From the NCBI GenBank assembly GCA_016184145.1, contig JACPDF010000022.1:1542-65541 (forward strand): 64,000 nucleotides of DNA. Direction: 5' to 3'. This document shows, piece by piece, positions 48,099-61,731 of this stretch. The notes under the pieces were generated by a model. It worked only from the letters and a program-made list of their open reading frames with translations, was not told the DNA's origin and did no database searches. Numbering within the stretch: the first letter of the stretch is position 1; each line of letters opens with the position of its first letter. Source of the DNA: Candidatus Woesearchaeota archaeon. Its GTDB lineage: Archaea; Nanobdellota; Nanobdellia; Woesearchaeales; GW2011-AR4. Position numbers and translations under genes: made by a program.

Positions 48099-48566
48099 TT
48101 GCATATGGATGAGGCAGTTTCTTTCCTGAAAGAATGGTTCATAAGATTTCTTGAGAATAGGGATTTGGTAAGGAAGAATATTGCAAGCATTGATGGCAAA
48201 GAAGGATTTGATTTCGTTGTAAATTATAGGGATAAAGCTGTAAATTTTTTAATCATGCCAATTTTAGAGGGCAATAGCCTAGAAAAAATAAATAATAACG
48301 AAAATTTCGGCATTATCACCCTTAACAATTCCCAGAATATAAGATTCTCATATAACTGCTGGAAAAAAATAGCTGAAATGAGGTTTTTGAGCCTGTATTT
48401 CGTAAATCCATTTTCTAATACAGATAAAGCATGGATACTTTGCCCTTATGCGCATGACAGGATATGCGACAAAAATTCCCTGTGGCTGGGGCTTAAAGCA
48501 ATGGCTGAGATGGTAGAGCCCATTAATTATGAAAAAGTCATGGAAAGGCTCAAACTAGAAAGATAA
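48099..48566 (+). CDS. Hypothetical protein (155 aa)
   Basis: ORF downstream of PCNA. No motif recognised. Confidence 0.4.
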   Translation: MHMDEAVSFLKEWFIRFLENRDLVRKNIASIDGKEGFDFVVNYRDKAVNFLIMPILEGNSLEKINNNENFGIITLNNSQNIRFSYNCWKKIAEMRFLSLYFVNPFSNTDKAWILCPYAHDRICDKNSLWLGLKAMAEMVEPINYEKVMERLKLER

Positions 48567-49143
48567 GCAGCTGGCCTACAAAGCCGCTGACTATTGGTAC
48601 TATTAAGTTATCGTCCAATTCATCTACTAATGTTTCTGTTATTGTTGCCACAAAGGCCATTATAATTGGTATGTATATGTTTATTGTAAAGGCCAAGCTT
48701 ATCAATACTGCCACTATAAGATTTGTTACTAGCTCTGATGCAAAGCCTACAACAGTCTTGTTCTTGAATAATAAGGTGGTGCCGTATTTTTTCCCTGCGA
48801 TTGCCGCAGCAACATCGCCAAAAGTTGTCATTAACAATGCTGCAAGGGCTATGGCAGTGTCAAATACTGCAAACGCTATTATTGTTGAGGAAAAGAAAAA
48901 AATAACGCCGTAAACCCTGTATTGCTCCTTAGGCCTTATGAACTGGTGGAAAAAAGGGAGCTTGAAATTCAATTCTAAGCGGAAATACTCCAATACTAGG
49001 AAGAATATAAGCAGCCCAACAAGGAACAATAAAGCAACCTGCTGCCCTGCCTGATTCTTTATTGCAAAGAAAAGGACAAGTACTATTAAAATAGTTATGT
49101 GGATTATTTTCCTGCCTATCTCATGAAAAAACTGCCAAGGCAT
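48550..49143 (-). CDS. CTP-transferase-family membrane protein (CarS/dolichol kinase-like), second paralog
   Basis: Polytopic protein whose motif TFGDVAAAIAGKKYG resembles the cytidylyltransferase signature. Confidence 0.5.
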   Translation of the reverse strand: MPWQFFHEIGRKIIHITILIVLVLFFAIKNQAGQQVALLFLVGLLIFFLVLEYFRLELNFKLPFFHQFIRPKEQYRVYGVIFFFSSTIIAFAVFDTAIALAALLMTTFGDVAAAIAGKKYGTTLLFKNKTVVGFASELVTNLIVAVLISLAFTINIYIPIIMAFVATITETLVDELDDNLIVPIVSGFVGQLLIFLV

Positions 49144-49241: not shown

Positions 49242-49742
49242 ATGAATTCGATAGACAAATTTAAGAACGATAACGGGGGAATCGGCAGGGATAATATCAA
49301 GAAAATTATACCTTATGACGATCCTTTTCTGATGATAGACAGGGTAGTAAGCCTTGATAAAAAAAAGATTATAGCAGAGAAGGATGTAAAGGCTGATGAA
49401 TATTATTTCAGGGGCCATTTTAAAGGCTTTCCTATAATGCCTGGAGCATTGATTGTTGAAGGCCTTGGGCAAGCAGCTACATTGTTAATAAGATATAACA
49501 TACCAAGCCACGAAGAGAAAGATGTTTTGGCATATAAGATAAGAGGCGCAAAGTTTTTCAGGCCGACTTTTCCTGGTCATACATTGAGGTTTGAGGCAAA
49601 ACTTACTTTCAAGCTTAAAATGGCATGGTTTGTAAATGGGATTGTATATAGAAACGAGAAGGTAGTGTCAAAGGTAAAAATGGTTTTAGCTGTTGTTGAT
49701 AAAGATAAGTTTAGGGGAAAGTATAGCGGAAGAACTAAATAG
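49242..49742 (+). CDS. fabZ: 3-hydroxyacyl-thioester dehydratase, FabZ-like hotdog fold
   Basis: PYDDPFLMIDRV...YYFRGHFKGFPIMPGALIVEGLGQAA matches the FabZ signature. Confidence 0.75.
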   Translation: MNSIDKFKNDNGGIGRDNIKKIIPYDDPFLMIDRVVSLDKKKIIAEKDVKADEYYFRGHFKGFPIMPGALIVEGLGQAATLLIRYNIPSHEEKDVLAYKIRGAKFFRPTFPGHTLRFEAKLTFKLKMAWFVNGIVYRNEKVVSKVKMVLAVVDKDKFRGKYSGRTK

Positions 49743-49873
49743 ATAAGATAATTGTTTAGTTCTTCCTGATACACTGGGAAATGCTTTGCATTTCCGGTGT
49801 CCCAAAAATCTACGATTTTTGAGGATAGCAAACACACATCTATCTGGAAAGAAATATTTTGTGGGGGGTAAAA

Positions 49874-50878
49874 ATGCCTGTTTATATTAAAGGAGTCGGA
49901 ATGACGAAATTTGGCGTGCATACGAAAACCAGCCAGGAGCTGTGCTATGAGGCTGCCCTTGAGGCTATTCAAGATGCGGATATCCAGCCAGAAGACATAA
50001 ATGCCATTGTTATTTCCCGAGGGGATTCTGCAGTTGATGGAGAGAGGCAAAGACTGTTTCCTTCCGTAATAAGCAGCATTCTTCAGAAAGAAAACATCCC
50101 AATAATCCAAGTAACGGCTGCCTGCAGCGGCGGAGGGGCTGCATTGTGGGACGCTATCCATTCAGGCTATGATAATGTGCTGATAATTGGAGTAGAAAAA
50201 TTAACTCCCACTCCAACAAAAATAGTGACTGATAATCTGATGATGGCATCTGAAAGAATATACGAGCAGACCGAGGGCCTTAACTTCCCAGCCCAGAACG
50301 CTTTGATTGCCCAGCAATACATGATGAAATACAATGCTACAGAAGACGATCTTGCATTAGTGGCTTTGAAGAACCACGACAATGCTTTTCTAAACCCCAA
50401 GGCAAGGTTTATAGAGATTATCGGATCTTCATTGTATGCTGACAGGCTCCCTGCATTTGAAAGCAGGGATATGACATCATGGGAAGCTACGAAGCTTGCT
50501 GCAGCAGAGGCATATAAACGAGCAGGGATAACGCCAAAGGATGTTAATTTTGCAGAGCTGCATGATGCATTTACATCTGTGGAGCTAATGACATATGAAG
50601 ACCTTGGCTTTGCGGAAAATGGAAAAGGAAAGGTTCTGATAAAAAAGGGGATTACGAAAATTAATGGAGAATTGCCAGTAAATGCATCCGGCGGCTTAAA
50701 GGCGAAAGGGCATCCGGTAAGCGCCACAGGCGTTTCCCAGATTTATGAAATAGTAAGCCAAATGAGAAAACGAGCAGAAAAAAGGCAGCTAAACAATGTA
50801 AAAATCGGCTTGGCGCATAATGTTGGAGGTACCGGCAGCACTGCAACAGTCCACATATTAAAAAACATAGGTGGTTAA
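49874..50878 (+). CDS. Thiolase-family protein (acetyl-CoA acetyltransferase / SCP-x-like), paralog 1
   Basis: VYIKGVGMTKFG...TAACSGGGAALWDA (active-site Cys) ...NASGGLKAKGHPVSATGVSQIYE. A GGGGGT Shine-Dalgarno-like sequence precedes the ATG. Confidence 0.8.
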   Translation: MPVYIKGVGMTKFGVHTKTSQELCYEAALEAIQDADIQPEDINAIVISRGDSAVDGERQRLFPSVISSILQKENIPIIQVTAACSGGGAALWDAIHSGYDNVLIIGVEKLTPTPTKIVTDNLMMASERIYEQTEGLNFPAQNALIAQQYMMKYNATEDDLALVALKNHDNAFLNPKARFIEIIGSSLYADRLPAFESRDMTSWEATKLAAAEAYKRAGITPKDVNFAELHDAFTSVELMTYEDLGFAENGKGKVLIKKGITKINGELPVNASGGLKAKGHPVSATGVSQIYEIVSQMRKRAEKRQLNNVKIGLAHNVGGTGSTATVHILKNIGG

Positions 50879-52346
50879 TGTGATAATCAGATGGGTTTCA
50901 GAAGACGGGAAGAGAAAATGGATTTATCCTGTTGAGAAGGACTTATATTCCAAGGGCAGGATAATAAAACAGGTGAGCACAAAAGCAAAGGTCATTGGTA
51001 TAACCAAGGTCAATATTCCCTCGCCATTGCACCCCATTATCCCTTATTATGTCATGCTGCTGGAAGACAAATACGGAAACAGAATGCCAAAGAAAACAAT
51101 GAGAGAATGTAAGATTGGGGACACTTATGAGGTTAAGGCTGCTACAACTGATAATGCAGTTATAATAACAAAGATAAAATATGATGTAGAGGAATATTTG
51201 AAAGAATCTCTTAAGCTAGTCCACGCTCATGAGCTTGAGGCTGCTGATAAAATTCTCATAAAACCAAGCATAATAGAGGCTGCTTATGCATACCAGGCAG
51301 TCAACACGAATCCTAAAGTTATAGATGGGCTGATAAGTTACCTCAGGGAAAAGGGCATAGAGGATATTGCAGTTGGAGAGCAGGCTATGCTTGGCAATGA
51401 TGTTATTGATGCTGCAAATAAGGCAGGAATTCTTGATGTATGCAAAAAGCACAATGTGCCTTTTATTGATTTAAGCAAAGCAGAATATGCCGAAAAAACA
51501 TCTGACGGATTCAGCTTTAGGATTGCAAAAGATGCTATGGACAGAAAGGTGATAAATGCACCAGTGGTGAAGACAAATTCCCAGATTGGGATTTCAGGAG
51601 CAATGGAGAATATGATAAGGGTTACAGACGAGAGAACCCAGAAAAAGATGTTCGAGGAGGATATAGAAAAGAGCCTGCCAAAGCTTATAAAAGCGCTCCC
51701 GGAATTTTTAACTGTGGGAGATGCTACCATAGGCCTTCATGCTCAAGGCCCTACCTCACTAGGAGAGCCTGCATTCCTGAACATGCTGTTTATCAGCAAG
51801 AATCCTGTTGCTTTGGATTCCGTATTTGCTGAAGCTGGTTTGTTTAAAATGCCCCAATACCTGAAAGAGGCTGCTGCAATAGGTTTAGGAAGCAATAATG
51901 CCAGGGATATAGAGATTGTAGGGGACGAGCTGGAAGCCATAAAGCAGCACCTAAAATACCCGGAAAAAGATGTAACTTCCCACCCCCACATAAAACTCAT
52001 AGACGGAAAGGCTGATCCTTATATCTTTAATTCTGCTTTGAAAATGACTGCTAAGCTTGTAGGCCTGCTGGGCTATGAAATGTGGGTTGCAATAGGACTT
52101 CATTTTTCAGAAGAAGAACTTGCAGGAAAAAATAGGCTGGTGGCGTATGGAAAGGATGCAATCAAGAGGACAAGAGAACTTGGAGCGAAAACAATAGCAG
52201 AGATTCCTGATGATATAGATGATATGGAGAAAATAGTGCTATTAAAGAGTGTTTTGGAAAACAAAGAAAAAAGGAATATCACGGCAGCGGATAAGCTTAA
52301 ATCAAAAATTACTAGTATCGGAGCTAAAATCAAGGGCTCATTTTAA
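50871..52346 (+). CDS. Fusion protein: N-terminal DUF35-like OB-fold (thiolase-associated) and C-terminal DUF362-like domain
   Basis: N-terminus GRIIKQVSTKAKVIGITKVNIPSP...PYYVMLLEDKYGNRM...IGDTYEV matches the DUF35 OB-fold pattern without the Zn ribbon. The C-terminal ~380 aa contain ILIKPSII...NTNPKVIDGL, INAPVVKTNSQIGISGAMENM and DATIGLHAQGP, resembling DUF362 from memory. Confidence 0.5.
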   Translation: MVNVIIRWVSEDGKRKWIYPVEKDLYSKGRIIKQVSTKAKVIGITKVNIPSPLHPIIPYYVMLLEDKYGNRMPKKTMRECKIGDTYEVKAATTDNAVIITKIKYDVEEYLKESLKLVHAHELEAADKILIKPSIIEAAYAYQAVNTNPKVIDGLISYLREKGIEDIAVGEQAMLGNDVIDAANKAGILDVCKKHNVPFIDLSKAEYAEKTSDGFSFRIAKDAMDRKVINAPVVKTNSQIGISGAMENMIRVTDERTQKKMFEEDIEKSLPKLIKALPEFLTVGDATIGLHAQGPTSLGEPAFLNMLFISKNPVALDSVFAEAGLFKMPQYLKEAAAIGLGSNNARDIEIVGDELEAIKQHLKYPEKDVTSHPHIKLIDGKADPYIFNSALKMTAKLVGLLGYEMWVAIGLHFSEEELAGKNRLVAYGKDAIKRTRELGAKTIAEIPDDIDDMEKIVLLKSVLENKEKRNITAADKLKSKITSIGAKIKGSF

Positions 52347-52365
52347 TTACAACAGGTGTTTTATT

Positions 52366-53379
52366 GTGACATACATAAAAGGTATCGGGATGACGAAATT
52401 TGATGTTGACCAGAGAAGCTCTTATGAGAGAGTATACGAATGCGTAAATGATGCCCTTGACAGCGGCAATATCGGAATAGAGAATATAGATGTTATTTTT
52501 GTTTCCAATGCCGAGGCAGAATCAAACGGGGAAAGGCAGAAACACATTGGGCCTATGATGAGCAGCATGTTCCAGAAAAAGATGCCGATAGTCACTGTGC
52601 CTGCAGGCTGTGGCGGAGGAGGCACGGCACTATGGAATGCCATTCATTACCAGAAAAACAATAAGGAAAATAATATCCTGGTTATAGGTTTTGAAAAGCT
52701 AGTTGCAAATTTATCTGAAAGGGCGACAGATGAGATGCTTATGGGTGGTGAAAGGGTATACGAGCAAAATGAAGGCGTAATATTTCCAGCCCAGAATGCA
52801 TTAGTAGCGCAGCAATACATGATGAAATACAATGCTACAGAAGACGATCTTGCATTAGTGGCTTTGAAGAACCACGACAATGCTTTTCTAAACCCCAAGG
52901 CAAGGTTTACAGACATAGAGATAGCAGGCAGCGGATTAAGCACCAGCAATTTAGCAAGTTTTGAAAGAGAAGATATGACTTCCTGGGATTCTACAGTTAC
53001 TGCTGGAAAAATAGCCTATAAGGAAGCTGGCATTAAGCCAAAAGATATTGATATAGCTGAAGTCCATGATGCATTTACTCCTGTTGAGCTGATATCTTAT
53101 GAAGACCTTGGCTTTACAGGAAAAGGAAAAGGCAAGGACCTAATAAGGGAAGGATACACAAATTTATCAGGCAAGCTTCCAGTCAATACTTCTGGCGGCT
53201 TAAAGGCAAAGGGACATCCTATAAGCGCAACAGGCGTTTCCCAGATTTATGAGCTTGTTCTGCAATTGAGAGGTCAGGCAGGGAAAAGGCAGGTTGACAA
53301 TGTAAAAATCTGCTTGGCGCATAATATAGGAGGAGCAGGCAGCACTGCAAGCGTGCATATACTGAAGAAAGTTGTTTAA
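52366..53379 (+). CDS. Thiolase-family protein, paralog 2 (probable GTG start)
   Basis: TYIKGIGMTKFD...VPAGCGGGGTALWNA...NTSGGLKAKGHPISATGVSQIYE. aggtg lies 9 nt upstream of the GTG. Confidence 0.75.
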   Translation: MTYIKGIGMTKFDVDQRSSYERVYECVNDALDSGNIGIENIDVIFVSNAEAESNGERQKHIGPMMSSMFQKKMPIVTVPAGCGGGGTALWNAIHYQKNNKENNILVIGFEKLVANLSERATDEMLMGGERVYEQNEGVIFPAQNALVAQQYMMKYNATEDDLALVALKNHDNAFLNPKARFTDIEIAGSGLSTSNLASFEREDMTSWDSTVTAGKIAYKEAGIKPKDIDIAEVHDAFTPVELISYEDLGFTGKGKGKDLIREGYTNLSGKLPVNTSGGLKAKGHPISATGVSQIYELVLQLRGQAGKRQVDNVKICLAHNIGGAGSTASVHILKKVV

Positions 53380-53393
53380 ATTAGAAATAAAAA

Positions 53394-54806
53394 TCATAAT
53401 CTTGGATTTAAAATATGTATCGCTTTTCCCATTGTCGCTTCTGCAGCTTCCATCAGGCTCTCGCTTAATGTGGGATGTGGATGAATAGTCAATGCTAAAT
53501 CATCCAAAGTCGCTTTCATTTTTATTGCCAACGATGCCTCGCTTATAAGATCTGAAGCGTCTGAACCGATAATTTCCACGCCAATAATTTTATTATTTTT
53601 AGAGTCTGCTATTATTTTTACAAATCCTTCTGTGTCTGATTTTGTCATTGCCCTGCTTGAAACAGAAAAGGGAAATTTTCCCACTTTTACTTTTATGCCA
53701 TTATCTTCTGCATCCTTTTCTGACATCCCTACTGTAGCGATTTCCGGATCAGTAAAGATTACAGAAGGAACAACAGAATCTTCATATTTTTCTTTGTTGT
53801 TGGTTATTATTTCCGCAACAAACTTTCCCTGGTAGGATGCCTTGTGGGCAAGCATTGGGCCAATTGAAACGTCTCCTATTGCATAAATATTCCCATCATC
53901 TGTGATTAAATTTTTGTTTACATTTATGAATCCTTTATTGTCTAACTGCACTTTTGTATTCTCCAGGCCAAGGCCTTTTGTATTTGGGTACCTGCCTATA
54001 GCTACAAGCACTTTATCCGCTTCCAAGGAAATGCTTCCTTTTTCTTTTGAGCTTGCAATTATCTTGGTATTTTCAAATTTTTCAGCCTTTGTATCCAAGC
54101 AAATATTTACGCCCAGCTTTTCCAGCTTTTTATGAATAACCTCAACTATTGCCTTGTCAAATCCCGGAAGCAGCTGACCTGTCATCTCTATTATAGAAAC
54201 ATTGCTGCCAAGCTTTGCATATACTGTTCCCAGTTCTAGCCCGATATAGCCGCCTCCAATTACAACAAGGTTTTGCGGGATTTTGCCCAGGTAAAGAATT
54301 TCTGTTGAGCTTAGAATTTTGCTGCCATCAAACTTTAGATTGGGGATTTCCACTGGCTTTGAGCCAGTTGCTATGATTGCCTTTTCAAAATCAATATAAG
54401 AAATATCATTTCCATTGCTTATTTTTAGTTTGCTGGAGGATTCGAAGGCTGCAATACCTTTCACAACTTCGATATTATTGCCTTTGCATAGGTTTTCTAT
54501 CCCTTTGTTTAGTTTTGCTATTATGCTGTCTTTCCATTCCTGCATCTTTTGGAAGTCCATAGATACATTGTCAGCATTAATCCCCATGTTTGAGGCGTTT
54601 TTTATCCTGCTTAGGAAATCGGAAGCGTAAATCATAGCCTTGCTTGGTATGCAGCCATAATTAAGGCAGATGCCTCCAAGCTTATCGTCTTTCTCCACAA
54701 GAACTGTTTTTTTTCCGAGCTGGGCTGACCTAATAGCAGCAACATAGCCGCCAGGGCCTGCGCCTATTACTACAACATCAGCCTTTGCATTATTATTTTT
54801 TCCCAT
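53394..54806 (-). CDS. lpdA: Dihydrolipoyl dehydrogenase (E3, lipoamide dehydrogenase)
   Basis: FAD site VVVIGAGPGGYVAAIRSAQLG, redox-active disulfide GGICLNYGCIPSK, NAD site VVIGGGYIGLELG, and a C-terminal dimerisation HPHPTLSE motif. Start taken at MGKNNN. Confidence 0.85.
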   Translation of the reverse strand: MGKNNNAKADVVVIGAGPGGYVAAIRSAQLGKKTVLVEKDDKLGGICLNYGCIPSKAMIYASDFLSRIKNASNMGINADNVSMDFQKMQEWKDSIIAKLNKGIENLCKGNNIEVVKGIAAFESSSKLKISNGNDISYIDFEKAIIATGSKPVEIPNLKFDGSKILSSTEILYLGKIPQNLVVIGGGYIGLELGTVYAKLGSNVSIIEMTGQLLPGFDKAIVEVIHKKLEKLGVNICLDTKAEKFENTKIIASSKEKGSISLEADKVLVAIGRYPNTKGLGLENTKVQLDNKGFINVNKNLITDDGNIYAIGDVSIGPMLAHKASYQGKFVAEIITNNKEKYEDSVVPSVIFTDPEIATVGMSEKDAEDNGIKVKVGKFPFSVSSRAMTKSDTEGFVKIIADSKNNKIIGVEIIGSDASDLISEASLAIKMKATLDDLALTIHPHPTLSESLMEAAEATMGKAIHILNPRL

Positions 54807-55000
54807 TTTTGTTAATCTACTTCCACAATATTTAAATCTTCTCCTAGTATTTCGGAGGGTTGCGAAGGTTTGCTGGAGCAAACCTCGAAAATCCTTTTTT
54901 GATTTTCCGTTGCAATCCCTCCACTAGTGTGCGGGTACGCACAAATAGAAAGTTTAAAAAAGCCCTTAATTTTGCTCTTAGAATCGATACAATAAATAAT

Positions 55001-55984
55001 ATGGCCGATATAATGAGTTTACAACAATCAAAATCATGGAAGCCTGACAGGCCTGTTTCAAGGGGGGCTACAGAATTCCACAATGCGGTAATAAATGCTA
55101 CATGGAACCATGAATGCCTTGATTACCTCATATCTTTGGCTGAGCCAAACATCGAGGAAAATGATATTATAGTTGATTTTGGCGCTGGCACAGGCACTTC
55201 TGCAGCCAGAATTCTTGAAAAAATAAAGACCGGAATAAGACTATGGCTTGTTGACAATTCACCGGCGTGGCTGGGCAAAGCCTACGAAATTTTCGGAAAA
55301 ACCCCGAATGTCAGCTTTTTTGTTCTGGAGAAAAAAAATGGGGATGATGCTACCTTGTCTGAGACAGTGGGAAAAGAAACTGTGGATAATGTGCTTTCCG
55401 CCAATACAGTCCATTTGATCCCGGATTTGAAATCTACATTTAAGGGTATTGCCGAGGCATTAAAGCCAAAAGGCATCTTCGTTTTTAACAGCACGAACGT
55501 GACAAGAGAAGGAAGACCTGACGGAGCATTGATGCTGGATTCAACTGTTTACAGGGTGCATGACATTGCCATAGACATAATAAGGAGCGATCCAAGATAC
55601 AAAAAATACAGAAAAGATATTGACAACAAGATAGTCGAAGAAGCCCCGCAAAGGAACTTCATATTTCCGCAGCCTAAGCCGATTAGTGATTATTTGAAAG
55701 CGTTAAAGGATGCTGGTTTTGAGTCAATTAAGACCAATTATAAATGCATCAGGGTCAAGTATAATGAATACATTAAATTCCTAAGGGTCAAGAGGCTGCA
55801 GGCCGGAATGCTGCCGGAAGTTGGCGGAAAGAAACCAAGCCCTGAAGAGGAAAAAGACAGAGACGAGCTGGTAACAATGGCTTCTTTAAAGCTTTTTAAG
55901 GAATTAGAGGAAAATAATCCTCTTGCGGACAGCGAGGCTTGGCAATGCGAATGGGCTTATGTTTCAGCTGTAAAACCAGGTTAA
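55001..55984 (+). CDS. Class I SAM-dependent methyltransferase
   Basis: Motif I IIVDFGAGTGTSA and post-I acidic residue (LVDNS). Start taken at MADIMS (the annotated ORF extends 47 codons upstream). Confidence 0.65.
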   Translation: MADIMSLQQSKSWKPDRPVSRGATEFHNAVINATWNHECLDYLISLAEPNIEENDIIVDFGAGTGTSAARILEKIKTGIRLWLVDNSPAWLGKAYEIFGKTPNVSFFVLEKKNGDDATLSETVGKETVDNVLSANTVHLIPDLKSTFKGIAEALKPKGIFVFNSTNVTREGRPDGALMLDSTVYRVHDIAIDIIRSDPRYKKYRKDIDNKIVEEAPQRNFIFPQPKPISDYLKALKDAGFESIKTNYKCIRVKYNEYIKFLRVKRLQAGMLPEVGGKKPSPEEEKDRDELVTMASLKLFKELEENNPLADSEAWQCEWAYVSAVKPG

Positions 55985-55985
55985 A

Positions 55986-56720
55986 ATGCTAAAAGGAAAA
56001 ACTGCACTTATAACAGGAGCTTCGAGGGGAATTGGAGAATCTATTGCTATTGAGTTTGCCAAAAACCATGCTGATGTCATTATAAACTACTACAGCGACA
56101 AGCATGAAGCGCAGAAAGTTGTTGACAAAGTGAAAAAATATGGCGTTAACTGCGTTGCTGTGCAGGCCGATGTCAGCAAGGTTGATGAAGTAAAGAGGAT
56201 GGCTGATGAAATACAGAAACAATTCAAAAAAGTCGACATTCTTGTCAATAACGCAGGAATTGTAAAGGACAGAACATTGAAGAATATGACCCTGGATGAA
56301 TGGCATACTGTGATAAACACAAACCTCAACGGAGTTTTTTATGTGACTAAATTTATTTTGCCTTTGATACCAGAAGGGGGCAGGATAATAAGCATATCTT
56401 CCATTGTGGGGCAGTATGGAAATTTTGGGCAGAGCAATTACGCAGCTGCAAAAGCCGGAATCATAGGGTTTACAAAGTCACTTTCGAAGGAGCTTGGAAA
56501 GAAAAAGATAACAGTAAATGCAATCGCCCCAGGCTTTGTTAAAACAGCAATAACCAAGGACATACCTTTTTTCAGAAAAAAGCTGATAAACCATATGATA
56601 CCATTGAAAGAAGAGGCTATGCCGGAAGATATAGCTACTGTAGCAGTTTTTTTGGCTTCTGATAAATCAAGATACATAACCGGGGCAGTCATTAATGTTG
56701 ATGGCGGCCTGGCTATCTAA
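55986..56720 (+). CDS. fabG: 3-oxoacyl-[ACP] reductase-type short-chain dehydrogenase (FabG-like SDR)
   Basis: TGASRGIGESIA, NNAG, catalytic S...YAAAK, and PGFVKT. Confidence 0.8.
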   Translation: MLKGKTALITGASRGIGESIAIEFAKNHADVIINYYSDKHEAQKVVDKVKKYGVNCVAVQADVSKVDEVKRMADEIQKQFKKVDILVNNAGIVKDRTLKNMTLDEWHTVINTNLNGVFYVTKFILPLIPEGGRIISISSIVGQYGNFGQSNYAAAKAGIIGFTKSLSKELGKKKITVNAIAPGFVKTAITKDIPFFRKKLINHMIPLKEEAMPEDIATVAVFLASDKSRYITGAVINVDGGLAI

Positions 56721-58669: not shown

Positions 58670-59452
58670 TTATTTTTTCTTTTCTGTTTCAAGAATAAAA
58701 TCGCAGATTTCCTTGAATATTCTTTTCTTATCGAAATCCACGCTTATCACGTGACCAGAGTTTTGGATATAAATGATTCTTTTTTCACTTATCCTTAGAG
58801 CATCATAGATAAACTGCGAGCTTTTAGGCTTTATTGTATTGTCTTTTTTTGAATGTATAATTAATGTTGGAACCTTGATGTTTTTTATTTCCTTCTTTGC
58901 AATTTTTATAAGTTTTAATGCAGATGCCATGGACTCTAGAGGAACCTGCTTGTATGCTATCCTATCCTTCAAGGCTTTTTCATCTGCAATATCGAAAAAT
59001 GCTTCTTTTCTTCCAGGATAATATCTGCCGTAGTCTTTTATTGAGTATTTTTTGAAATATTTTAAAATTGGCGTAAATTTCGCTAATGGGCTTGTATAGA
59101 AGATTGCCGGGGCTAATAGCACTAATCCCTTTATTTTATTATTCTTAATGTTGGCAGCGAGGTGCAATGAAAGCATGGCTCCAATTGACAGGCCAATTAC
59201 ATAGATTTTATCACAATTCTTATTTAGGAAATCAAAATCTTCTGTAACGGAAGAATACCAGTCCTGCCATGTGGTTTTACTTAGATCTTTTACAGAGGCG
59301 CTGTGGCCTTTGAGAAGAGGCGCAAGCACAGTATACTCCTTCGAATGCAAATAAGATGCGAGCTCTTCCATTTCCTGCGTGGAAGAAGTAAGCCCGTGCA
59401 CTAACAAACAGCCGATTTTGCCTTTTTTCTTAAATAACCTGCTGCCTTTCAT
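58670..59452 (-). CDS. Alpha/beta hydrolase (carboxylesterase/lysophospholipase-like)
   Basis: Oxyanion-hole region LLVHGLTSS and nucleophile elbow GLSIGAM (GxSxG). Confidence 0.75.
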   Translation of the reverse strand: MKGSRLFKKKGKIGCLLVHGLTSSTQEMEELASYLHSKEYTVLAPLLKGHSASVKDLSKTTWQDWYSSVTEDFDFLNKNCDKIYVIGLSIGAMLSLHLAANIKNNKIKGLVLLAPAIFYTSPLAKFTPILKYFKKYSIKDYGRYYPGRKEAFFDIADEKALKDRIAYKQVPLESMASALKLIKIAKKEIKNIKVPTLIIHSKKDNTIKPKSSQFIYDALRISEKRIIYIQNSGHVISVDFDKKRIFKEICDFILETEKKK

Positions 59453-60444
59453 CAGATTATGTCTAGAAGCTGGTCTATTGCTTCCTTAAGGTCCATCCCC
59501 TGATAGAGCACTTTGTGCGCATGGGCTATCAAAGGGGTCTCTAAACCATTATTTTTGCACAATTGGTAAACTGCTTTTGTATTTTTAATGCCTTCTGCCA
59601 CCATACCATGCATTTCTTTGTTTATCTGCGCTATACTCTTTCCTTTTGCAAGCCCTTCCCCAACAAACCTGTTTCTGCTATGGTTGCTGTAGCATGTAGC
59701 AACTAGGTCGCCAACTCCCGCCAACCCATAACAGGTTTCTCTTTTTGCCCCGAATTTCCTTGCTATAATGCTCATTTCAGAAAGGCCTAAAGTAAGGATG
59801 CTAGCTTTGGAATTATCCCCGAACCTTAGGCCGTCGCAAACCCCTATTGCTATCGCGACTATGTTTTTTATGGCGCCGCATATTTCAACCCCTGTTACAT
59901 CGTCATGAGGATAAGTCTTAAAATAAGGAGTGCAAAAAACTTTTGCCACTAATTCCCTCGTGCTTTTGTTTTCCGATGCCACTACTGTTGCTGTGGGCAG
60001 CTTAACAGCAACCTCCTCCGCATGGTTTGGCCCTGACAAAACCGCAATGCTCTTTGCCTCGGGCAATTCTTCTTCCAGCACTTTTGACATGAGCTTTCCT
60101 GTATTCTCCTCTATACCTTTGGCTACATGGACAACAATCATGCTTTTATCGATGAATCCTGAAAAAGATTTTGCAGTATGCCTTAGAAATTCCGAAGGCA
60201 CTGCGAAGACAACCATGCCAGAATTTTCAATAGCATCTTTCATTGAATGGGTTGAACTTACACTAGAGGGTATTTTGATGCCTTTAAGATATTGACCATT
60301 TTCTCTTTTTTTATTTATCTCATCAGCAAGCTCTTCTCTTCTCGCCCATAAAGAAACCTTATATCCTTTTTCTCCGAGCAGTATGGCCAAAGCTGTTCCC
60401 CAGCTTCCTGCTCCAATAACCGCAATTTTTCCTGCCTTTTTCAT
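59452..60444 (-). CDS. gpsA: NAD(P)H-dependent glycerol-3-phosphate dehydrogenase (bacterial GpsA type)
   Basis: IAVIGAGSWGTALA, GPNHAEEV, GAIKNIVAIAIG and C-terminal helical domain; 330 aa. Confidence 0.85.
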   Translation of the reverse strand: MKKAGKIAVIGAGSWGTALAILLGEKGYKVSLWARREELADEINKKRENGQYLKGIKIPSSVSSTHSMKDAIENSGMVVFAVPSEFLRHTAKSFSGFIDKSMIVVHVAKGIEENTGKLMSKVLEEELPEAKSIAVLSGPNHAEEVAVKLPTATVVASENKSTRELVAKVFCTPYFKTYPHDDVTGVEICGAIKNIVAIAIGVCDGLRFGDNSKASILTLGLSEMSIIARKFGAKRETCYGLAGVGDLVATCYSNHSRNRFVGEGLAKGKSIAQINKEMHGMVAEGIKNTKAVYQLCKNNGLETPLIAHAHKVLYQGMDLKEAIDQLLDII

Positions 60445-60446
60445 GT

Positions 60447-61078
60447 TTAATAATTATATTTCTGCCCTGACAGATTTGCTATTTCCCTCATTATACTGTC
60501 TGTTACCGACCTTAAGAGTTTTTTTGTCATTGGCTTATTGTAATACTTGTCAAAATACATCGGCTTACCGAAACTGAATGACGCTCTTTTTAATTTCGGT
60601 ATTTTTGCGCCTTTTGGTAGTATTTCAAATGTGCCTTTTATTCCTACCGGGATAACAGGAACCCTTGCCCATAAGGCTAATCTTGCCACTCCTGTCTTGC
60701 CTTTTTGGAGCTTTCCTGTCAGGTTACTATGATTGCCCCTCTCCTTAGGTATGATACGGCTGCTTTTATAGCCCCTTCGCCTTTTTCCCTGTCTATGGGA
60801 ATATAGGTTATGTATCTTTTCCATAAACTGTGCCATGTACTTTGGGTGATGCTTTCAAAATGCTCTTTTTTTGCTATGAAATAGAGTTTTTTGTTCAAGT
60901 ATGGAACTACTATAGAGCCTATCATGAAATGCTCTATGTAGCTGCAATGGTTAGGGGCAAGTATGAAGGCTTTGTCTTTAGGCAGATTCTCCAATCCCCT
61001 GATATTTTTTATCCAAAGCTTTATTATGGGCGGAACAAGATATTTCCCTATGGGTGGAGGAAAAGGCTTTATTTTCAT
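60447..61078 (-). pseudogene. Frameshifted 1-acyl-sn-glycerol-3-phosphate acyltransferase (PlsC-like) paralog
   Basis: The N-terminal part (60719..61078, APNHCSYIEH) and the C-terminal part (60447..60836, LTGKLQKGKTGVARLALWARVPVIPVGIKGTFE) lie in different frames. Compared with the intact neighbour, about 11 nt are missing just upstream of the shared tract. Confidence 0.7.
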
Positions 61079-61668
61079 AGCTTGTACCTCTGATTGGATA
61101 ATTTTGCAATTTCTGTCATTATTTTATCAGTAAGTTTTCTCAATATTTGCTTTTTTATCTCTCTTTTATAATAATTATCAAAATAGATCGGTTTTCCTAT
61201 ATTTATTACTATATTTTTTTTAAATTTTGGCATGATTTTCCCTTTAGGCATAAGCTCAAATGTGCCTTTTATTCCTACCGGGATAACAGGAACCCTTGCC
61301 CATAAGGCTAATCTTGCCACTCCTGTCTTGCCTTTTTGGAGCTTTCCTGTCAGGATGGCTTCCTGCAAAACTATTTGCCCCTCAGCTTCCCTGTCAAAAG
61401 TAATCTGCCTGCCAATTTTGAATATCCACTTAATTATTGGATTAGAAACCAGCTCTTTCTTTGCAAGATACCTAACTTCCTTTTTCCTCAGCCTCATTAA
61501 AACTGTTGAAAGGGCTATTATATCCAGATAACTTGAATGGTTTGCAGCTAAAATAAACCCTTTTTTTTGCGGAAGATTTTCCTTTCCATTGATTTTTCTT
61601 ATGAGAATCTTGCTGCATAATTTAAGAAAAGGACCGTATATAATCCATAAAATAAAATTGCTGAACAT
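61075..61668 (-). CDS. plsC: 1-acyl-sn-glycerol-3-phosphate acyltransferase (PlsC family)
   Basis: HX4D motif AANHSSYLD, FDREAEG, LQKGKTGVARLA and VPVIPVGIKG blocks. Confidence 0.8.
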   Translation of the reverse strand: MFSNFILWIIYGPFLKLCSKILIRKINGKENLPQKKGFILAANHSSYLDIIALSTVLMRLRKKEVRYLAKKELVSNPIIKWIFKIGRQITFDREAEGQIVLQEAILTGKLQKGKTGVARLALWARVPVIPVGIKGTFELMPKGKIMPKFKKNIVINIGKPIYFDNYYKREIKKQILRKLTDKIMTEIAKLSNQRYKL

Positions 61669-61731
61669 ATCATAGAAGATAGCTTGTTAATTTAAAAAGC
61701 TTATTGATATAAAAAAGAAAAAATAAAGGAC

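What the first reader, a model, noticed from the sequence alone, without database searches (positions are those of the whole stretch)
49242..53379. FabZ-like dehydratase, thiolase, DUF35(OB)-DUF362-like fusion, thiolase cluster, with a 100-nt gene-conversion tract between the thiolases
The FabZ-like hotdog dehydratase and both thiolases (active-site Cys in TAACSGGG / PAGCGGGG) are confidently identifiable. The two thiolases flank a 491-aa protein. Its N-terminal ~110 aa match the DUF35 OB-fold pattern that partners archaeal thiolases, and its remaining ~380 aa resemble DUF362. A DUF35 fused to a DUF362-like domain between two thiolases is an arrangement I do not recognise. The published archaeal complex is thiolase, a separate DUF35 protein and HMG-CoA synthase, and no HMG-CoA synthase signature is present here. 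Positions 50312..50411 and 52810..52909 are 100/100 identical inside otherwise diverged paralogs (encoding QQYMMKYNATEDDLALVALKNHDNAFLNPKARF), indicating recent gene conversion. Together with FabG-like (55986..56720), lipoamide dehydrogenase (53394..54806) and a SAM methyltransferase, this may be a fatty-acyl synthesis or beta-oxidation-like module feeding the ester-lipid genes downstream.
Basis: partly seen in the sequence, partly recalled or inferred. Interest (0 to 1): 0.55.

Follow-up and report, generated by a model that had tools for sequence, protein, structure and literature searches.

The report
Thiolase–DUF35/DUF362 fatty-acid cluster, partly misassembled
A tiny symbiotic archaeon (Woesearchaeota) carries a conserved gene cluster that probably builds fatty acids with thiolases docked on an unstudied fusion protein, but the "100-nt gene-conversion tract" owes its length to an assembly error that also removed about 125 nt from each thiolase gene.

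Summary
They are a FabZ-like dehydratase, two SCP2/archaeal-type thiolases, and a 488-aa protein between them. That protein has Pfam DUF362 at aa 128-320. Its N-terminal ~105 aa model as a DUF35-type OB fold.

The 100-nt identity (50312-50411 = 52810-52909) is exact. Its length, however, is an assembler signature: 99 nt (assembler k or k-1) plus one chance base. Right after it, both thiolase genes lack 41-43 codons that all 119 closest homologues have. An independent assembly, 100% identical over 2,429 nt, carries 26 of the missing codons. A second exact 99-nt repeat breaks the two PlsC genes of the same window.

Gene conversion between the thiolase paralogs is nevertheless real and recurrent in relatives.

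The cluster FabZ-ThlA-fusion-ThlB-FabG is conserved in about 70 Woesearchaeota loci. It sits next to GpsA and two PlsC genes, and usually next to BC/BCCP/BPL/BioY. A shorter version occurs in CPR bacteria. I found no ACP, KAS or carboxyltransferase nearby.

Best reading: an ACP-independent, thiolase-based fatty-acid synthase, a variant of the Sulfolobus KT/DUF35 complex. The LarA-like domain lacks the family's His-Lys-His motif and probably acts as an adaptor.

The parts
49242..49742 (+). FabZ-like hotdog 3-hydroxyacyl dehydratase (166 aa), first gene of the operon
   Evidence: Pfam FabA E 3.9e-22. The best NCBIfam hits are FabZ equivalogs, below their cut-offs. It lies directly upstream of ThlA in 55 related loci.
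49874..50878 (+). thlA, SCP2/archaeal-type thiolase; as assembled 334 aa, with about 129 nt (43 codons) missing between 50410 and 50411
   Evidence: Pfam Thiolase_N and Thiolase_C_1. PDB alignments show a gap at the N-beta5 'DGAAA' segment. Homologues are mostly about 375 aa. L004 supplies 78 nt of the missing part.
50312..50411 (+). Copy A of the exact repeat: 99 nt shared with thlB plus 1 coincidental A. The misjoin lies at 50410/50411.
50880..51194 (+). Fusion protein aa 1-105: DUF35-like module (OB fold; the zinc-ribbon Cys residues are lost in this lineage)
51237..51959 (+). Fusion protein aa ~120-360: DUF362 / LarA-like domain that lacks the His-Lys-His motif of stand-alone DUF362
51972..52346 (+). 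Fusion protein aa ~365-488: family-specific alpha/beta C-terminal extension, absent from the ~380-aa 'short-type' relatives
   Evidence: Secondary structure of the model. Matches covering only residues 1-360 in L049-L063 and L066.
52366..53379 (+). thlB, paralogous thiolase (GTG start); as assembled 337 aa, with about 123 nt missing after 52908
52810..52909 (+). Copy B of the exact repeat. Its left boundary is independently marked by the end of Logan contig L004 at 52839.
53394..54806 (-). Dihydrolipoyl dehydrogenase (Lpd), convergent with the operon; a lineage-specific neighbour
   Evidence: NCBIfam TIGR01350, 556 bits against a cut-off of 409. Present in 11 loci only.
55004..55984 (+). Class I SAM methyltransferase, a conserved neighbour of FabG
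   Evidence: Pfam Methyltransf_12/31/25. Only a weak BioC-like hit. Found beside the cluster in many related loci (28 ORFs), partly as ~575-aa long forms.
55986..56720 (+). FabG-like 3-oxoacyl reductase (SDR)
   Evidence: Pfam adh_short_C2 E 1.6e-68. NCBIfam FabG subfamily NF009466, 258 bits against 222. In L056 it is fused in frame to the OB-DUF362 protein.
59452..60444 (-). Bacterial-type NAD(P)-dependent glycerol-3-phosphate dehydrogenase (GpsA)
   Evidence: Pfam. Syntenic in 24 loci.
60450..61668 (-). Two tandem PlsC-like acyltransferase genes, broken by a second 99-nt repeat misjoin (60625-60723 = 61256-61354)
48550..49143 (-). CTP_transf_1 (CdsA-like / cytidylyltransferase family) membrane protein, divergent from the operon
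   Evidence: Pfam E 3.7e-6. Syntenic in the window's clade: L001, L012, L016 and L047 (L022 rearranged).

Best explanation
Two things are superimposed.

(1) Biology. fabZ-thlA-(OB/DUF362)-thlB, together with the nearby methyltransferase-fabG pair, encodes the condensing, reducing and dehydrating core of an ACP-independent, CoA-based fatty-acid synthase of Woesearchaeota. The two thiolase paralogs perform the Claisen condensation. The N-terminal DUF35-type module of the 488-aa protein docks on them, as DUF35 proteins do in the thiolase/HMGCS, BbsAB, PhlABC and Sulfolobus KT/DUF35 complexes. Its LarA-like DUF362 domain has lost the family's conserved His-Lys-His motif. It most likely acts as an adaptor or ligand-binding platform that recruits FabG, and perhaps FabZ, so that the unfavourable condensation is pulled forward by channelling. 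The products would feed the neighbouring PlsC acyltransferases and GpsA to make glycerol-3-phosphate ester lipids.

(2) Artefact. thlA and thlB really do exchange sequence by gene conversion at a hotspot (QQYM...NPKARF...). The resulting exact repeat of 99 nt or more broke the de Bruijn assembly. The scaffolder then joined each left contig, which ended k (or k-1) = 99 nt into the repeat, to a downstream contig. This left a '100-nt' identical tract and deleted about 125 nt from each gene.

Shown: gene identities, fold assignments, synteny, the deletions and the k-mer signature. Inferred: complex formation, the direction of the pathway and the adaptor role of DUF362.
For: Artefact.
- The gap relative to solved thiolases begins at the end of the tract.
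- All 119 closest homologues are 349-401 aa (mostly 375), and only the window's own protein is short.
- L004 is 100% identical over 2,429 nt and carries the missing SPLRLFDCSISVDGAAAAIISRDKTD. It ends 30 nt into tract B.
- The sister scaffold L001 has two exact 99-nt tracts with truncations, and the Logan contig L002 restores the lost C-terminus.
- The second 99-nt repeat in the window breaks the PlsC pair.
- Tracts of 99 or 141/142 nt with split thiolases occur mainly in NC_groundwater and RIFCS scaffolds. The NC_groundwater MAGs were made with MEGAHIT defaults plus the IDBA-UD scaffolder (PMC7906910).

Conversion is real.
- In 25 loci with intact genes the tract-equivalent 99 nt is 68-100% identical (7 loci at 100%), against about 67% in the flanks.
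- Long exact tracts also occur in intact genes from other assemblers.

Function.
- Pfam and NCBIfam assignments.
- AF2 model with pLDDT 89.7.
- A CxxC..CxxC ribbon is present in 53 of 76 relatives.
- The order FabZ-Thl-fusion-(FabG)-Thl-...-FabG-...-GpsA-PlsC-PlsC is conserved in about 70 loci.
- L056 has an in-frame OB-DUF362-FabG fusion.
- The CPR locus L069 has Thl-fusion-FabG-CMAS-FabZ::FabK-FabK-PlsC-PlsC-BC-BCCP-BPL.
- No ACP was found in any locus.
- Precedent: the S. acidocaldarius KT/DUF35 complex binds the SDR reductase and the dehydratase (bioRxiv 10.1101/2024.07.05.601840).
Against: - No enoyl reductase was found in the window.
- There is no sequence-level DUF35 signal (Pfam none; hhalign probability 0.6%).
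- The window copy has no zinc-ribbon Cys.
- The cluster thiolases carry HDAF rather than the SCP2-type HDCF. The consequence is unknown, and PDB 7yvy, annotated as an acetyl-CoA acetyltransferase, has HDAF too.
- The tight linkage of BC/BCCP/BPL/BioY without a carboxyltransferase in relatives hints at a carboxylation-dependent step that a pure 'channelling' model does not explain.
- The DUF362 domain keeps its own invariant residues (K128, K231, N244, D281, D313, the GP loop, and family-specific E243, R247, H368). It may therefore be catalytic rather than a passive adaptor.
- The exact mechanism of the scaffolding error was not reproduced.
- The thlB deletion has no independent read-level check.
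- Bulge-collapsing by other assemblers could inflate some of the 100%-identity tracts seen in relatives.
Confidence: 0.6

Rival explanations
1. Biotin-dependent decarboxylative condensation. The OB-DUF362 protein is, or recruits, the missing carboxyltransferase. BC/BCCP carboxylate an acetyl unit, and the thiolases, which lack the HDCF base, condense a malonyl-type extender with loss of CO2.
For: - BC (42 loci), BPL (40), BCCP (29) and BioY/ECF (10-17) lie directly beside the cluster, with no carboxyltransferase among the conserved neighbours within 9-10 kb.
- The same linkage holds in CPR bacteria.
- The thiolases have HDAF instead of HDCF.
- The DUF362 domain has strongly conserved family-specific residues.
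Against: - There is no precedent for a LarA-fold carboxyltransferase.
- A carboxyltransferase could be encoded elsewhere, since whole genomes were not searched.
- The window has no BC, BCCP or BPL in 64 kb.
- A solved protein annotated as an acetyl-CoA acetyltransferase (7yvy) also has HDAF.
- Sulfolobus KTs do not use malonyl-CoA.
Confidence: 0.12
2. The thiolase pair plus the DUF35-like protein is a non-lipid C-C or acyl-transfer enzyme (PhlABC/MucABC-type acyltransferase, BbsAB-type thiolytic cleavage, or an Ltp2-type aldolase). On this reading it works in degradation or secondary metabolism.
For: - The fold hits of the N-terminal module include PhlB, MucB, BbsA and ChsH2.
- Two different thiolase-fold subunits plus a DUF35 protein is the PhlABC/MucABC layout.
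- ECH and CoA-transferase III genes lie beside the cluster in some loci.
Against: - Synteny with FabZ, FabG, GpsA, two PlsC genes, a cyclopropane-fatty-acid synthase and FabK-like reductases (in CPR) is consistent and biosynthetic.
- These are reduced episymbiont genomes with little secondary metabolism (established knowledge).
- The nucleophilic Cys and the GHP His are kept in both thiolases.
Confidence: 0.13
3. A variant mevalonate-pathway entry complex. The thiolase plus DUF35 module makes acetoacetyl-CoA for isoprenoids, and DUF362 replaces HMG-CoA synthase as the pulling enzyme.
For: - The thiolases are closest to archaeal acetoacetyl-CoA thiolases (7yvy, 6esq).
- DUF35-mediated coupling is the published archaeal solution.
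Against: - A separate HMGCS-like-Thl-DUF35(-MaoC-SDR) set lies next to this cluster in 7 loci, so the two are distinct.
- Woesearchaeota mostly use the MEP pathway (PMC8204110, PMC10936187).
- FabZ and FabG have no role in the mevalonate pathway.
Confidence: 0.05
4. The sequence is correct as assembled. The thiolases are naturally short and a recent 100-nt conversion tract ends at a shared in-frame deletion.
For: - Both reading frames stay open across the junctions.
- A deletion variant at low abundance in the population cannot be excluded from contigs alone.
Against: - The deleted segment contains the core strand N-beta5 of the thiolase fold.
- No short homologue exists outside this pipeline's scaffolds.
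- The independent assembly has the segment.
- An identical 99-nt signature occurs at the PlsC pair and in the sister MAG.
Confidence: 0.03
5. The identical tract is a pure assembly duplication. Only one paralog really has this sequence, and there is no gene conversion.
For: The contig is demonstrably corrupted at exactly this place.
Against: - A de Bruijn contig ends inside a stretch only if that stretch is shared.
- The Logan contig coming from the thlB side stops exactly 30 nt into the tract, which places the same left boundary in both genes.
- Intact relatives show 92-100% identity in the same 99 nt in about half of the loci.
Confidence: 0.07

Closest known systems
Archaeal fatty acid synthase complex of Sulfolobus acidocaldarius (KT Saci_1121 / DUF35 Saci_1120 + SDR ketoacyl-CoA reductase Saci_1104 + MaoC dehydratase Saci_1085; separate MDR enoyl-CoA reductase), bioRxiv 10.1101/2024.07.05.601840
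   Same: It uses thiolase-type condensing enzymes paired with a DUF35-type OB protein. It has a FabG-like SDR reductase and a hotdog dehydratase. It is CoA-based with no ACP. Complex formation is the proposed way to pull the condensation forward, and here this is hinted at by the L056 OB-DUF362-FabG fusion.
   Different: - The DUF35 module is fused to a LarA-like DUF362 domain of about 380 aa.
- Two thiolase paralogs flank it.
- The dehydratase is of the FabZ type, not MaoC.
- No MDR reductase was found.
- It is linked to GpsA/PlsC and, in relatives, to BC/BCCP/BPL/BioY.
- The hosts are DPANN archaea and CPR bacteria, which that paper does not cover.
Thiolase/HMG-CoA synthase/DUF35 complex of Methanothermococcus thermolithotrophicus (PDB 6esq/6et9)
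   Same: The thiolases are of the same SCP2/archaeal type (E 4.5e-48). The N-terminal module of the fusion superposes on the DUF35 subunit 6esq_E/F.
   Different: There is no HMG-CoA synthase here. The place of the third enzyme is taken by a covalently attached DUF362 domain. A canonical HMGCS-like-Thl-DUF35 set exists separately in some relatives.
LarA superfamily / DUF2088 nickel-pincer-nucleotide racemases (5huq, 7s91, 9eia, 9q3j) and Pfam clan CL0471
   Different: There is no detectable sequence similarity to LarA. The positions that in stand-alone DUF362 carry H..K..H, with LarA-like spacing, are N233, E243 and F258 here. It is therefore probably not an NPN enzyme.
PhlABC / MucABC multicomponent acyltransferases and BbsAB benzoylsuccinyl-CoA thiolase
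   Same: These are thiolase-fold subunits held together by a DUF35 protein. PhlB, MucB and BbsA are fold hits.
   Different: Their genomic contexts differ (secondary metabolism, anaerobic toluene degradation). They have no FabZ/FabG/PlsC/GpsA linkage and no DUF362 domain.
Bacterial type II fatty acid synthesis (FabH/FabF, ACP, FabG, FabZ, FabI/K, ACC)
   Same: FabG- and FabZ-type enzymes are present, with downstream PlsC and GpsA. The CPR version adds FabK-like reductases, a cyclopropane synthase, BC and BCCP.
   Different: No ACP, no KAS-type condensing enzyme and no carboxyltransferase appear in any of the neighbourhoods. Thiolases occupy the condensing-enzyme position.

Membership tests
DUF35 thiolase-partner proteins (PF12172 zinc ribbon + PF01796 OB) | OB-fold domain of the ChsH2/BbsA/PhlB type | tested here: met
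DUF35 thiolase-partner proteins (PF12172 zinc ribbon + PF01796 OB) | N-terminal CxxC...CxxC rubredoxin-like zinc ribbon | tested here: not met
   The window protein has no Cys in aa 1-32 (SEDG...DLYS). 53 of 76 relatives do have CxxC..CxxC, so the loss is lineage-specific.
DUF35 thiolase-partner proteins (PF12172 zinc ribbon + PF01796 OB) | Match to the family's sequence profile | tested here: not met
   No PF01796 or PF12172 hit at E<=0.01. hhalign against the canonical DUF35 of the same taxa gives probability 0.6%.
DUF35 thiolase-partner proteins (PF12172 zinc ribbon + PF01796 OB) | Encoded next to an SCP2-type thiolase and forming a complex with it | tested here: inconclusive
   Adjacency is met wherever the upstream flank is held (a thiolase ORF in all 73 loci). 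Physical complex formation cannot be tested with these tools.
DUF362 (PF04015) | Profile match above the gathering score | tested here: met
   105.4 bits against 24, aa 128-320, profile positions 1-199 of 200.
DUF362 (PF04015) | Nearly invariant K-T-H ... K-N ... H motif of stand-alone members | tested here: not met
   K231-T232 and N244 are kept, but H is replaced by N233, K by E243 and H by F258. G is replaced by R247 and K by Q254.
LarA / nickel-pincer-nucleotide enzymes | LarA two-domain fold | tested here: met
LarA / nickel-pincer-nucleotide enzymes | NPN-tethering Lys184, Ni-ligand His200 and catalytic His108/His174 (PMC11770544) | tested here: inconclusive
   No residue-level superposition was available. 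By spacing (H-10-K-15-H in stand-alone DUF362 against H174-10-K184-16-H200), the equivalents here are N233, E243 and F258, that is, absent. The mapping is an inference.
LarA / nickel-pincer-nucleotide enzymes | LarB/LarC/LarE cofactor-synthesis genes in the genome | not tested
   None were seen among the annotated ORFs of the window, but the genome as a whole was not available.
SCP2/archaeal-type thiolase | Thiolase N and C domains with the nucleophilic Cys and the GHP His | tested here: met
   Pfam. phmmer to 7yvy E 5.9e-60. TAACSGGG and PAGCGGGG, GHPVSATG and GHPISATG.
SCP2/archaeal-type thiolase | Complete N-terminal domain including the '...PL.l.D.s..DGAAA...' strand | tested here: not met
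   It is missing from both window genes. It is present in the independent assembly L004 and in all homologues, so I attribute the absence to misassembly.
SCP2/archaeal-type thiolase | HDCF acid/base cysteine motif of SCP2 type-1 thiolases | tested here: not met
   HDAF occurs in 71 and 48 cluster thiolase ORFs. PDB 7yvy also has HDAF, so the meaning is unclear.
Archaeal KT/DUF35 fatty acid synthase (S. acidocaldarius type) | Ketothiolase + DUF35 pair + SDR ketoacyl-CoA reductase + hotdog dehydratase | tested here: met
   All four functions are encoded within 49242-56720. The dehydratase is of the FabZ type rather than MaoC.
Archaeal KT/DUF35 fatty acid synthase (S. acidocaldarius type) | NADPH-dependent MDR enoyl-CoA reductase | tested here: not met
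   No MDR, FabI or FabK-type protein was found among the window ORFs scanned. The CPR relatives have FabK-like NMO proteins.
Archaeal KT/DUF35 fatty acid synthase (S. acidocaldarius type) | Stable multi-enzyme complex mediated by the DUF35 protein; de novo fatty-acid synthesis | not testable with these tools
   There is only an indirect hint: the in-frame OB-DUF362-FabG fusion in L056.
Bacterial type II FAS | ACP and KAS (FabH/FabF/FabB) condensing enzymes | tested here: not met
   tblastn with E. coli ACP finds nothing in 77 loci, and no ACP hit was found in the window. No KAS family appears among the conserved neighbours. The test is limited to about 10 kb on each side of the cluster.
Interparalog gene conversion | A tract of identity far above the paralog background, including synonymous sites, with mosaic distribution among lineages | tested here: met
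   Window: 33 of 33 codons are identical, against 54% identical codons at conserved residues elsewhere. Relatives: 68-100% identity in the same 99 nt. The length and right boundary in the window are artefactual.

The most novel reading that the evidence does not exclude
DPANN archaea (Woesearchaeota) and some CPR bacteria share an undescribed, ACP-free fatty-acid synthase. Its condensing core is a thiolase bound to an OB(DUF35)-DUF362 protein. The LarA-fold DUF362 domain is the functional partner of the tightly linked biotin carboxylase/BCCP: either a new kind of carboxyltransferase or a coupling module that makes thiolase condensation decarboxylative. If so, these 'lipid-auxotrophic' episymbionts could make their own acyl chains for G3P ester lipids.
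Probability: 0.12. Interest if true: 0.9.

Novelty: new variant of a known kind. Interest (0 to 1): 0.55.

Why it matters
Woesearchaeota and CPR bacteria are generally treated as unable to make their own membrane lipids, and how archaea make fatty acids has only just begun to be worked out in Sulfolobus.

This cluster gives a concrete, testable candidate for the missing condensing enzyme behind the 'bacterial-type' FabG/FabZ/GpsA/PlsC genes already noted in Woesearchaeota. The candidate is thiolases docked on a DUF35-DUF362 fusion. It also assigns a first genomic context to a subfamily of DUF362.

The unexplained linkage of BC/BCCP/BPL/BioY without a carboxyltransferase deserves an experiment.

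There is a practical point as well. It leaves exact 99- or 141-nt tracts, split or shortened thiolases, and broken PlsC genes in this window. Annotation-based claims about 'degraded' lipid genes in these MAGs need checking against the reads.

Tried and rejected
- Pfam, NCBIfam and hhalign gave no sequence-level DUF35 signal in the N-terminus. Only fold and architecture support it.
- phmmer and hmmsearch of the fusion protein and its family profile against PDB sequences gave nothing useful.
- A profile of stand-alone DUF362 hit only 4Fe-4S ferredoxin domains through its Cys-rich C-terminus, not LarA. The LarA residue mapping therefore rests on spacing.
- The third large homologue search, with a 109-aa peptide built to fish out Logan fragments of the missing segment, returned only 20 unrelated fragments.
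- Look-up of the NCBI thlA protein found no record.
- The afdb50 fold library was not available.
- I searched the window for BC, BCCP, BPL, BioY, CoA-transferase and ACP and found none.
- I considered and rejected an intein or intron, or a natural 'mini-thiolase', as explanations for the short genes. The difference is a deletion, not an insertion, and it removes a core strand.
- I considered and rejected beta-oxidation, because the enzymes are FabZ/FabG-type and the neighbours are biosynthetic.
- I considered and rejected biotin synthesis via BioC/BioH-like genes. The hits are weak and below cut-offs, and relatives carry a BioY importer.
- I did not reconstruct how the scaffolder produced the exact junctions.

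Full report
**Origin and gene content**

The window is a contig of a Candidatus Woesearchaeota (DPANN) metagenome-assembled genome. The middle protein is 100% identical to an NCBI protein of that name, and the neighbours are archaeal housekeeping genes.

- 49242-49742 has a FabA/FabZ hotdog domain (Pfam E 3.9e-22). FabZ equivalogs are its best NCBIfam hits, though below their cut-offs.
- 49874-50878 (thlA) and 52366-53379 (thlB, GTG start) are SCP2/archaeal-type thiolases with Thiolase_N and Thiolase_C_1. Their best solved relatives are 7yvy and the M. thermolithotrophicus thiolase 6esq.
- 50880-52346 encodes a 488-aa protein whose only Pfam hit is DUF362, at aa 128-320 (105 bits).
- 53394-54806 (minus strand) passes the NCBIfam dihydrolipoyl dehydrogenase equivalog.
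- 55004-55984 is a generic class I SAM methyltransferase.
- 55986-56720 is FabG-like.
- Downstream lie a bacterial-type GpsA and two PlsC-like acyltransferases. Upstream lies a CTP_transf_1 membrane protein.

**The identical tract**

Positions 50312-50411 and 52810-52909 are exactly identical, and the match does not extend on either side. Elsewhere the paralogs are 56% identical in amino acids, 64% in nucleotides and 46% at third positions. The tract is therefore not chance, even allowing for protein conservation (P about 5e-9).

The region is nevertheless not correctly assembled.
- Against solved thiolases, both window proteins have a gap of roughly 50 residues that starts at the last codon of the tract.
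- In an alignment with relatives, thlA lacks 43 residues and thlB lacks 41 (YGKKVTLEMIKNSPVIASPLRLFDCSISVDGAAAAIISRDK(TD)). This segment includes the conserved DGAAA strand of the N-terminal domain.
- All 119 closest homologues are 349-401 aa (mostly 375). The only short one is the window's own NCBI protein.
- A contig from an independent assembly (Logan, run SRR4343435; L004) is 100% identical to window 50411-52839. Upstream of 50411 it continues with 78 nt that the window lacks. These encode SPLRLFDCSISVDGAAAAIISRDKTD, which are 26 of the 43 missing residues.
- The other end of L004 stops at 52839, exactly 30 nt into the thlB copy of the tract. That is where a k=31 unitig (the k I recall for Logan, not checked here) must stop if the tract is shared by two contexts.

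The tract's 100th base (A) is where a Tyr codon (TAY) is expected. The real shared stretch in the contig is therefore 99 nt plus one coincidental base.

**Why 99 nt**

The number 99 recurs.
- The only other exact repeat of 60 nt or more in the 64-kb window is 99 nt long (60625-60723 = 61256-61354). It lies between the two tandem PlsC genes. One of these is split into two overlapping ORFs, and the other lacks the FPEGTRS block that relatives have.
- A syntenic sister MAG from the groundwater dataset of He et al. (L001, GCA_016180235.1) has two exact 99-nt tracts between its thlA and thlB, each followed by truncation. Its independent Logan contig (L002) carries the normal thlA C-terminus that the scaffold lacks.
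- Across 73 related loci, split or shortened thiolases are found mainly in NC_groundwater and RIFCS scaffolds. There the exact tracts are 99 or 141/142 nt long.

The NC_groundwater MAGs were assembled with MEGAHIT defaults and then scaffolded with the IDBA-UD scaffolder (PMC7906910). From my own knowledge of these programs, MEGAHIT's default k list includes 99 and 141, and IDBA-UD's default maximum k is 100.

My reading is as follows. Each left-hand contig ended k (or k-1) nt into a real repeat. The scaffolder then butt-joined it to a downstream contig, losing about 125 nt. The exact mechanics of the join are inferred, not reproduced.

**Is gene conversion real?**

Yes, but its extent in this genome is unknown.
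- The repeat must be at least 99 nt in both genes to have broken the graph.
- Its left boundary is seen independently.
- If it runs to the first 30 nt of L004, it is about 180 nt long.
- In 25 related loci where both thiolases are intact (mostly other assemblers), the equivalent 99 nt ranges from 68% to 100% identity. Seven loci are at 100% and several are at 92-98%. The flanks stay near 65-70%.
- Exact tracts of 146-695 nt occur in intact gene pairs.

This mosaic pattern indicates recurrent, independent conversion at a hotspot (QQYM...NPKARF...), not uniform selection. One caveat applies: bulge-collapsing by assemblers could exaggerate some of the 100% values.

**The 488-aa protein**

An AlphaFold2 model built on 62 homologues is confident (pLDDT 89.7, pTM 0.89).

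N-terminal module (aa 1-105).
- Foldseek's specific matches are the DUF35 subunits of thiolase-type complexes: BbsA 7pxp, ChsH2 6ok1, the M. thermolithotrophicus DUF35 6esq, PhlB 5m3k and MucB 9vbo. All have probability 1.0.
- In 53 of 76 relatives a CxxC...CxxC zinc ribbon precedes the OB fold, which completes the DUF35 architecture. The window's clade has replaced all four Cys.
- At the sequence level there is no support. Pfam finds nothing, and hhalign against canonical DUF35 proteins of the same taxa gives probability 0.6%.

LarA-like domain (aa ~120-360).
- Stand-alone DUF362 proteins conserve K-T-H, K-N and H with the spacing of LarA's H174, K184 and H200.
- The fusion family has N233, E243 and F258 at these positions, and R247 and Q254 at two further conserved sites.
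- I therefore think it is not a nickel-pincer enzyme. It may be an adaptor or a neofunctionalised ligand-binding domain. It does keep invariant residues of its own.

C-terminal extension and family size.
- The last ~125 aa form a family-specific alpha/beta extension that a ~380-aa 'short type' lacks.
- An exhaustive search finds 2,201 DUF362-type cluster representatives, but only 35 at E<=1e-30. The OB-fused form is a small subfamily.
- No paper in the searched library contains both DUF362 and thiolase.

**Genomic context in relatives**

The family has at least 268 close homologues of about 488 aa, the named ones all Woesearchaeota or Nanoarchaeota. In 73 loci from species-representative genomes the order is conserved:

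[BioY/ECF]-[BPL]-[BCCP]-BC(<) FabZ> ThlA> fusion> (FabG>) ThlB> ... methyltransferase> FabG> ... GpsA< PlsC< PlsC<

- Lpd occurs in only 11 loci.
- In L056 the fusion protein continues in frame into FabG, giving a 747-aa ORF.
- CPR bacteria (Saccharibacteria, Paceibacterota, Patescibacteria) have a 28-30%-identical short form. In L069 it sits in Thl-fusion-FabG-cyclopropane-FA synthase-FabZ::FabK-FabK-PlsC-PlsC-BC-BCCP-BPL.
- A canonical HMGCS-like-Thl-DUF35(-MaoC-SDR) set lies separately next to the cluster in seven loci, so the two systems are distinct.
- No ACP (tblastn), no KAS and no carboxyltransferase appear in these neighbourhoods.
- The window itself has no BC, BCCP, BPL or BioY, and no enoyl reductase.

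**Interpretation**

The closest known system is the recently described archaeal fatty acid synthase of S. acidocaldarius. There a ketothiolase/DUF35 pair binds an SDR ketoacyl-CoA reductase and a hotdog dehydratase, so that channelling pulls the unfavourable condensation forward (bioRxiv 10.1101/2024.07.05.601840). That paper does not mention DPANN or FabZ, and no paper in the searched library holds both DUF362 and thiolase.

I propose that the window encodes a variant of this design:
- two thiolase paralogs;
- a DUF35 module fused to a degenerate LarA-like domain;
- FabG;
- a FabZ-type dehydratase;
- products feeding PlsC and GpsA.

The biosynthetic direction is favoured by the FabZ/FabG types and by the neighbours. 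Earlier papers had already noted FabG, FabZ, FabI, G3P dehydrogenase and cyclopropane synthase genes in Woesearchaeota, but no condensing enzyme (PMC8204110, PMC10936187).

Several points remain unexplained:
- the missing enoyl reductase;
- the HDAF (not HDCF) motif of the thiolases;
- the tight linkage of biotin carboxylase, BCCP, biotin ligase and a biotin importer without a carboxyltransferase.

The last point keeps open a more radical reading in which DUF362 couples carboxylation to condensation.

**Verdict**

The sequence is as stated, but the tract length and the thiolase gene models are assembly artefacts.
The DUF35-like/DUF362 fusion and the fatty-acyl synthesis context hold. Gene conversion is real, but it is misdescribed for this contig.
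- The system is a new variant of a known kind.

Noticed in passing
window 60450-61686 (repeat 60625-60723 = 61256-61354): A second exact 99-nt repeat lies between the two tandem PlsC-like acyltransferase genes. One copy is split into two overlapping ORFs. The other lacks the conserved FPEGTRS block seen in relatives. This is the same misassembly signature as at the thiolases.
   Followed up: yes
L001 7497-7595/9926-10024 and 7819-7917/10322-10420; L002: The sister MAG scaffold (GCA_016180235.1) has two exact 99-nt thlA/thlB tracts, each followed by lost sequence. The Logan contig L002 carries the normal thlA C-terminus that the scaffold lacks. Other scaffolds from the He et al. groundwater dataset show 141/142-nt tracts.
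   Followed up: yes
L056 9938-12178: An in-frame triple fusion of OB(DUF35-like, with a full CxxC..CxxC ribbon)-DUF362-FabG (747-aa ORF). This is a Rosetta-stone link between the fusion protein and the ketoreductase.
   Followed up: partly
L069 8092-19940 (Saccharibacteria MAG); also L070, L071: CPR bacteria carry a short (~345-aa) OB-DUF362 homologue next to a thiolase. In L069 the cluster also includes FabG, a cyclopropane-fatty-acid synthase, a FabZ::NMO (FabK-like) fusion, a second NMO, two PlsC genes, BC, BCCP and BPL.
   Followed up: partly
L003, L005, L009-L011, L019-L041 etc., upstream of FabZ: Biotin carboxylase (42 loci), biotin protein ligase (40), BCCP (29) and BioY/CbiQ/ABC ECF transporter genes (10-17) flank the cluster. 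No carboxyltransferase gene lies within about 10 kb. The window itself lacks all of these.
   Followed up: partly
L003 12923-16593; also L033, L038, L045, L050, L057, L065: A second thiolase system lies immediately downstream: HMGCS-like (ACP_syn_III_C) - thiolase - canonical DUF35 (- MaoC dehydratase - SDR). It resembles either the mevalonate entry complex or the Sulfolobus-type FAS.
   Followed up: no
window 53394-54806 (-): A full-length dihydrolipoyl dehydrogenase (passes the NCBIfam equivalog cut-off) in a DPANN genome, convergent with the thiolase operon. It is present in only 11 related loci, sometimes with an enoyl-CoA hydratase (ECH) gene next to it. Its partner complex is unknown.
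   Followed up: no
window 51735-51773 (fusion aa 286-298): The only low-confidence stretch of the model (pLDDT below 50) is a highly conserved G-x-x-x-x-G-P-x-x-x-G-E-P loop, shared with stand-alone DUF362. It is probably a mobile active-site or interface loop.
   Followed up: no
window 49874-50878, 52366-53379 and related loci: The cluster thiolases almost always carry HDAF where SCP2 type-1 thiolases have the HDCF acid/base cysteine (71 and 48 ORFs).
   Followed up: partly
window 4584-6092, 6305-7534, 15857-17221, 22650-23690: Several long ORFs (346-502 aa) have no Pfam match at E<=1e-5. In addition, a 588-aa protein with a lamin-tail domain lies at 40776-42542.
   Followed up: no
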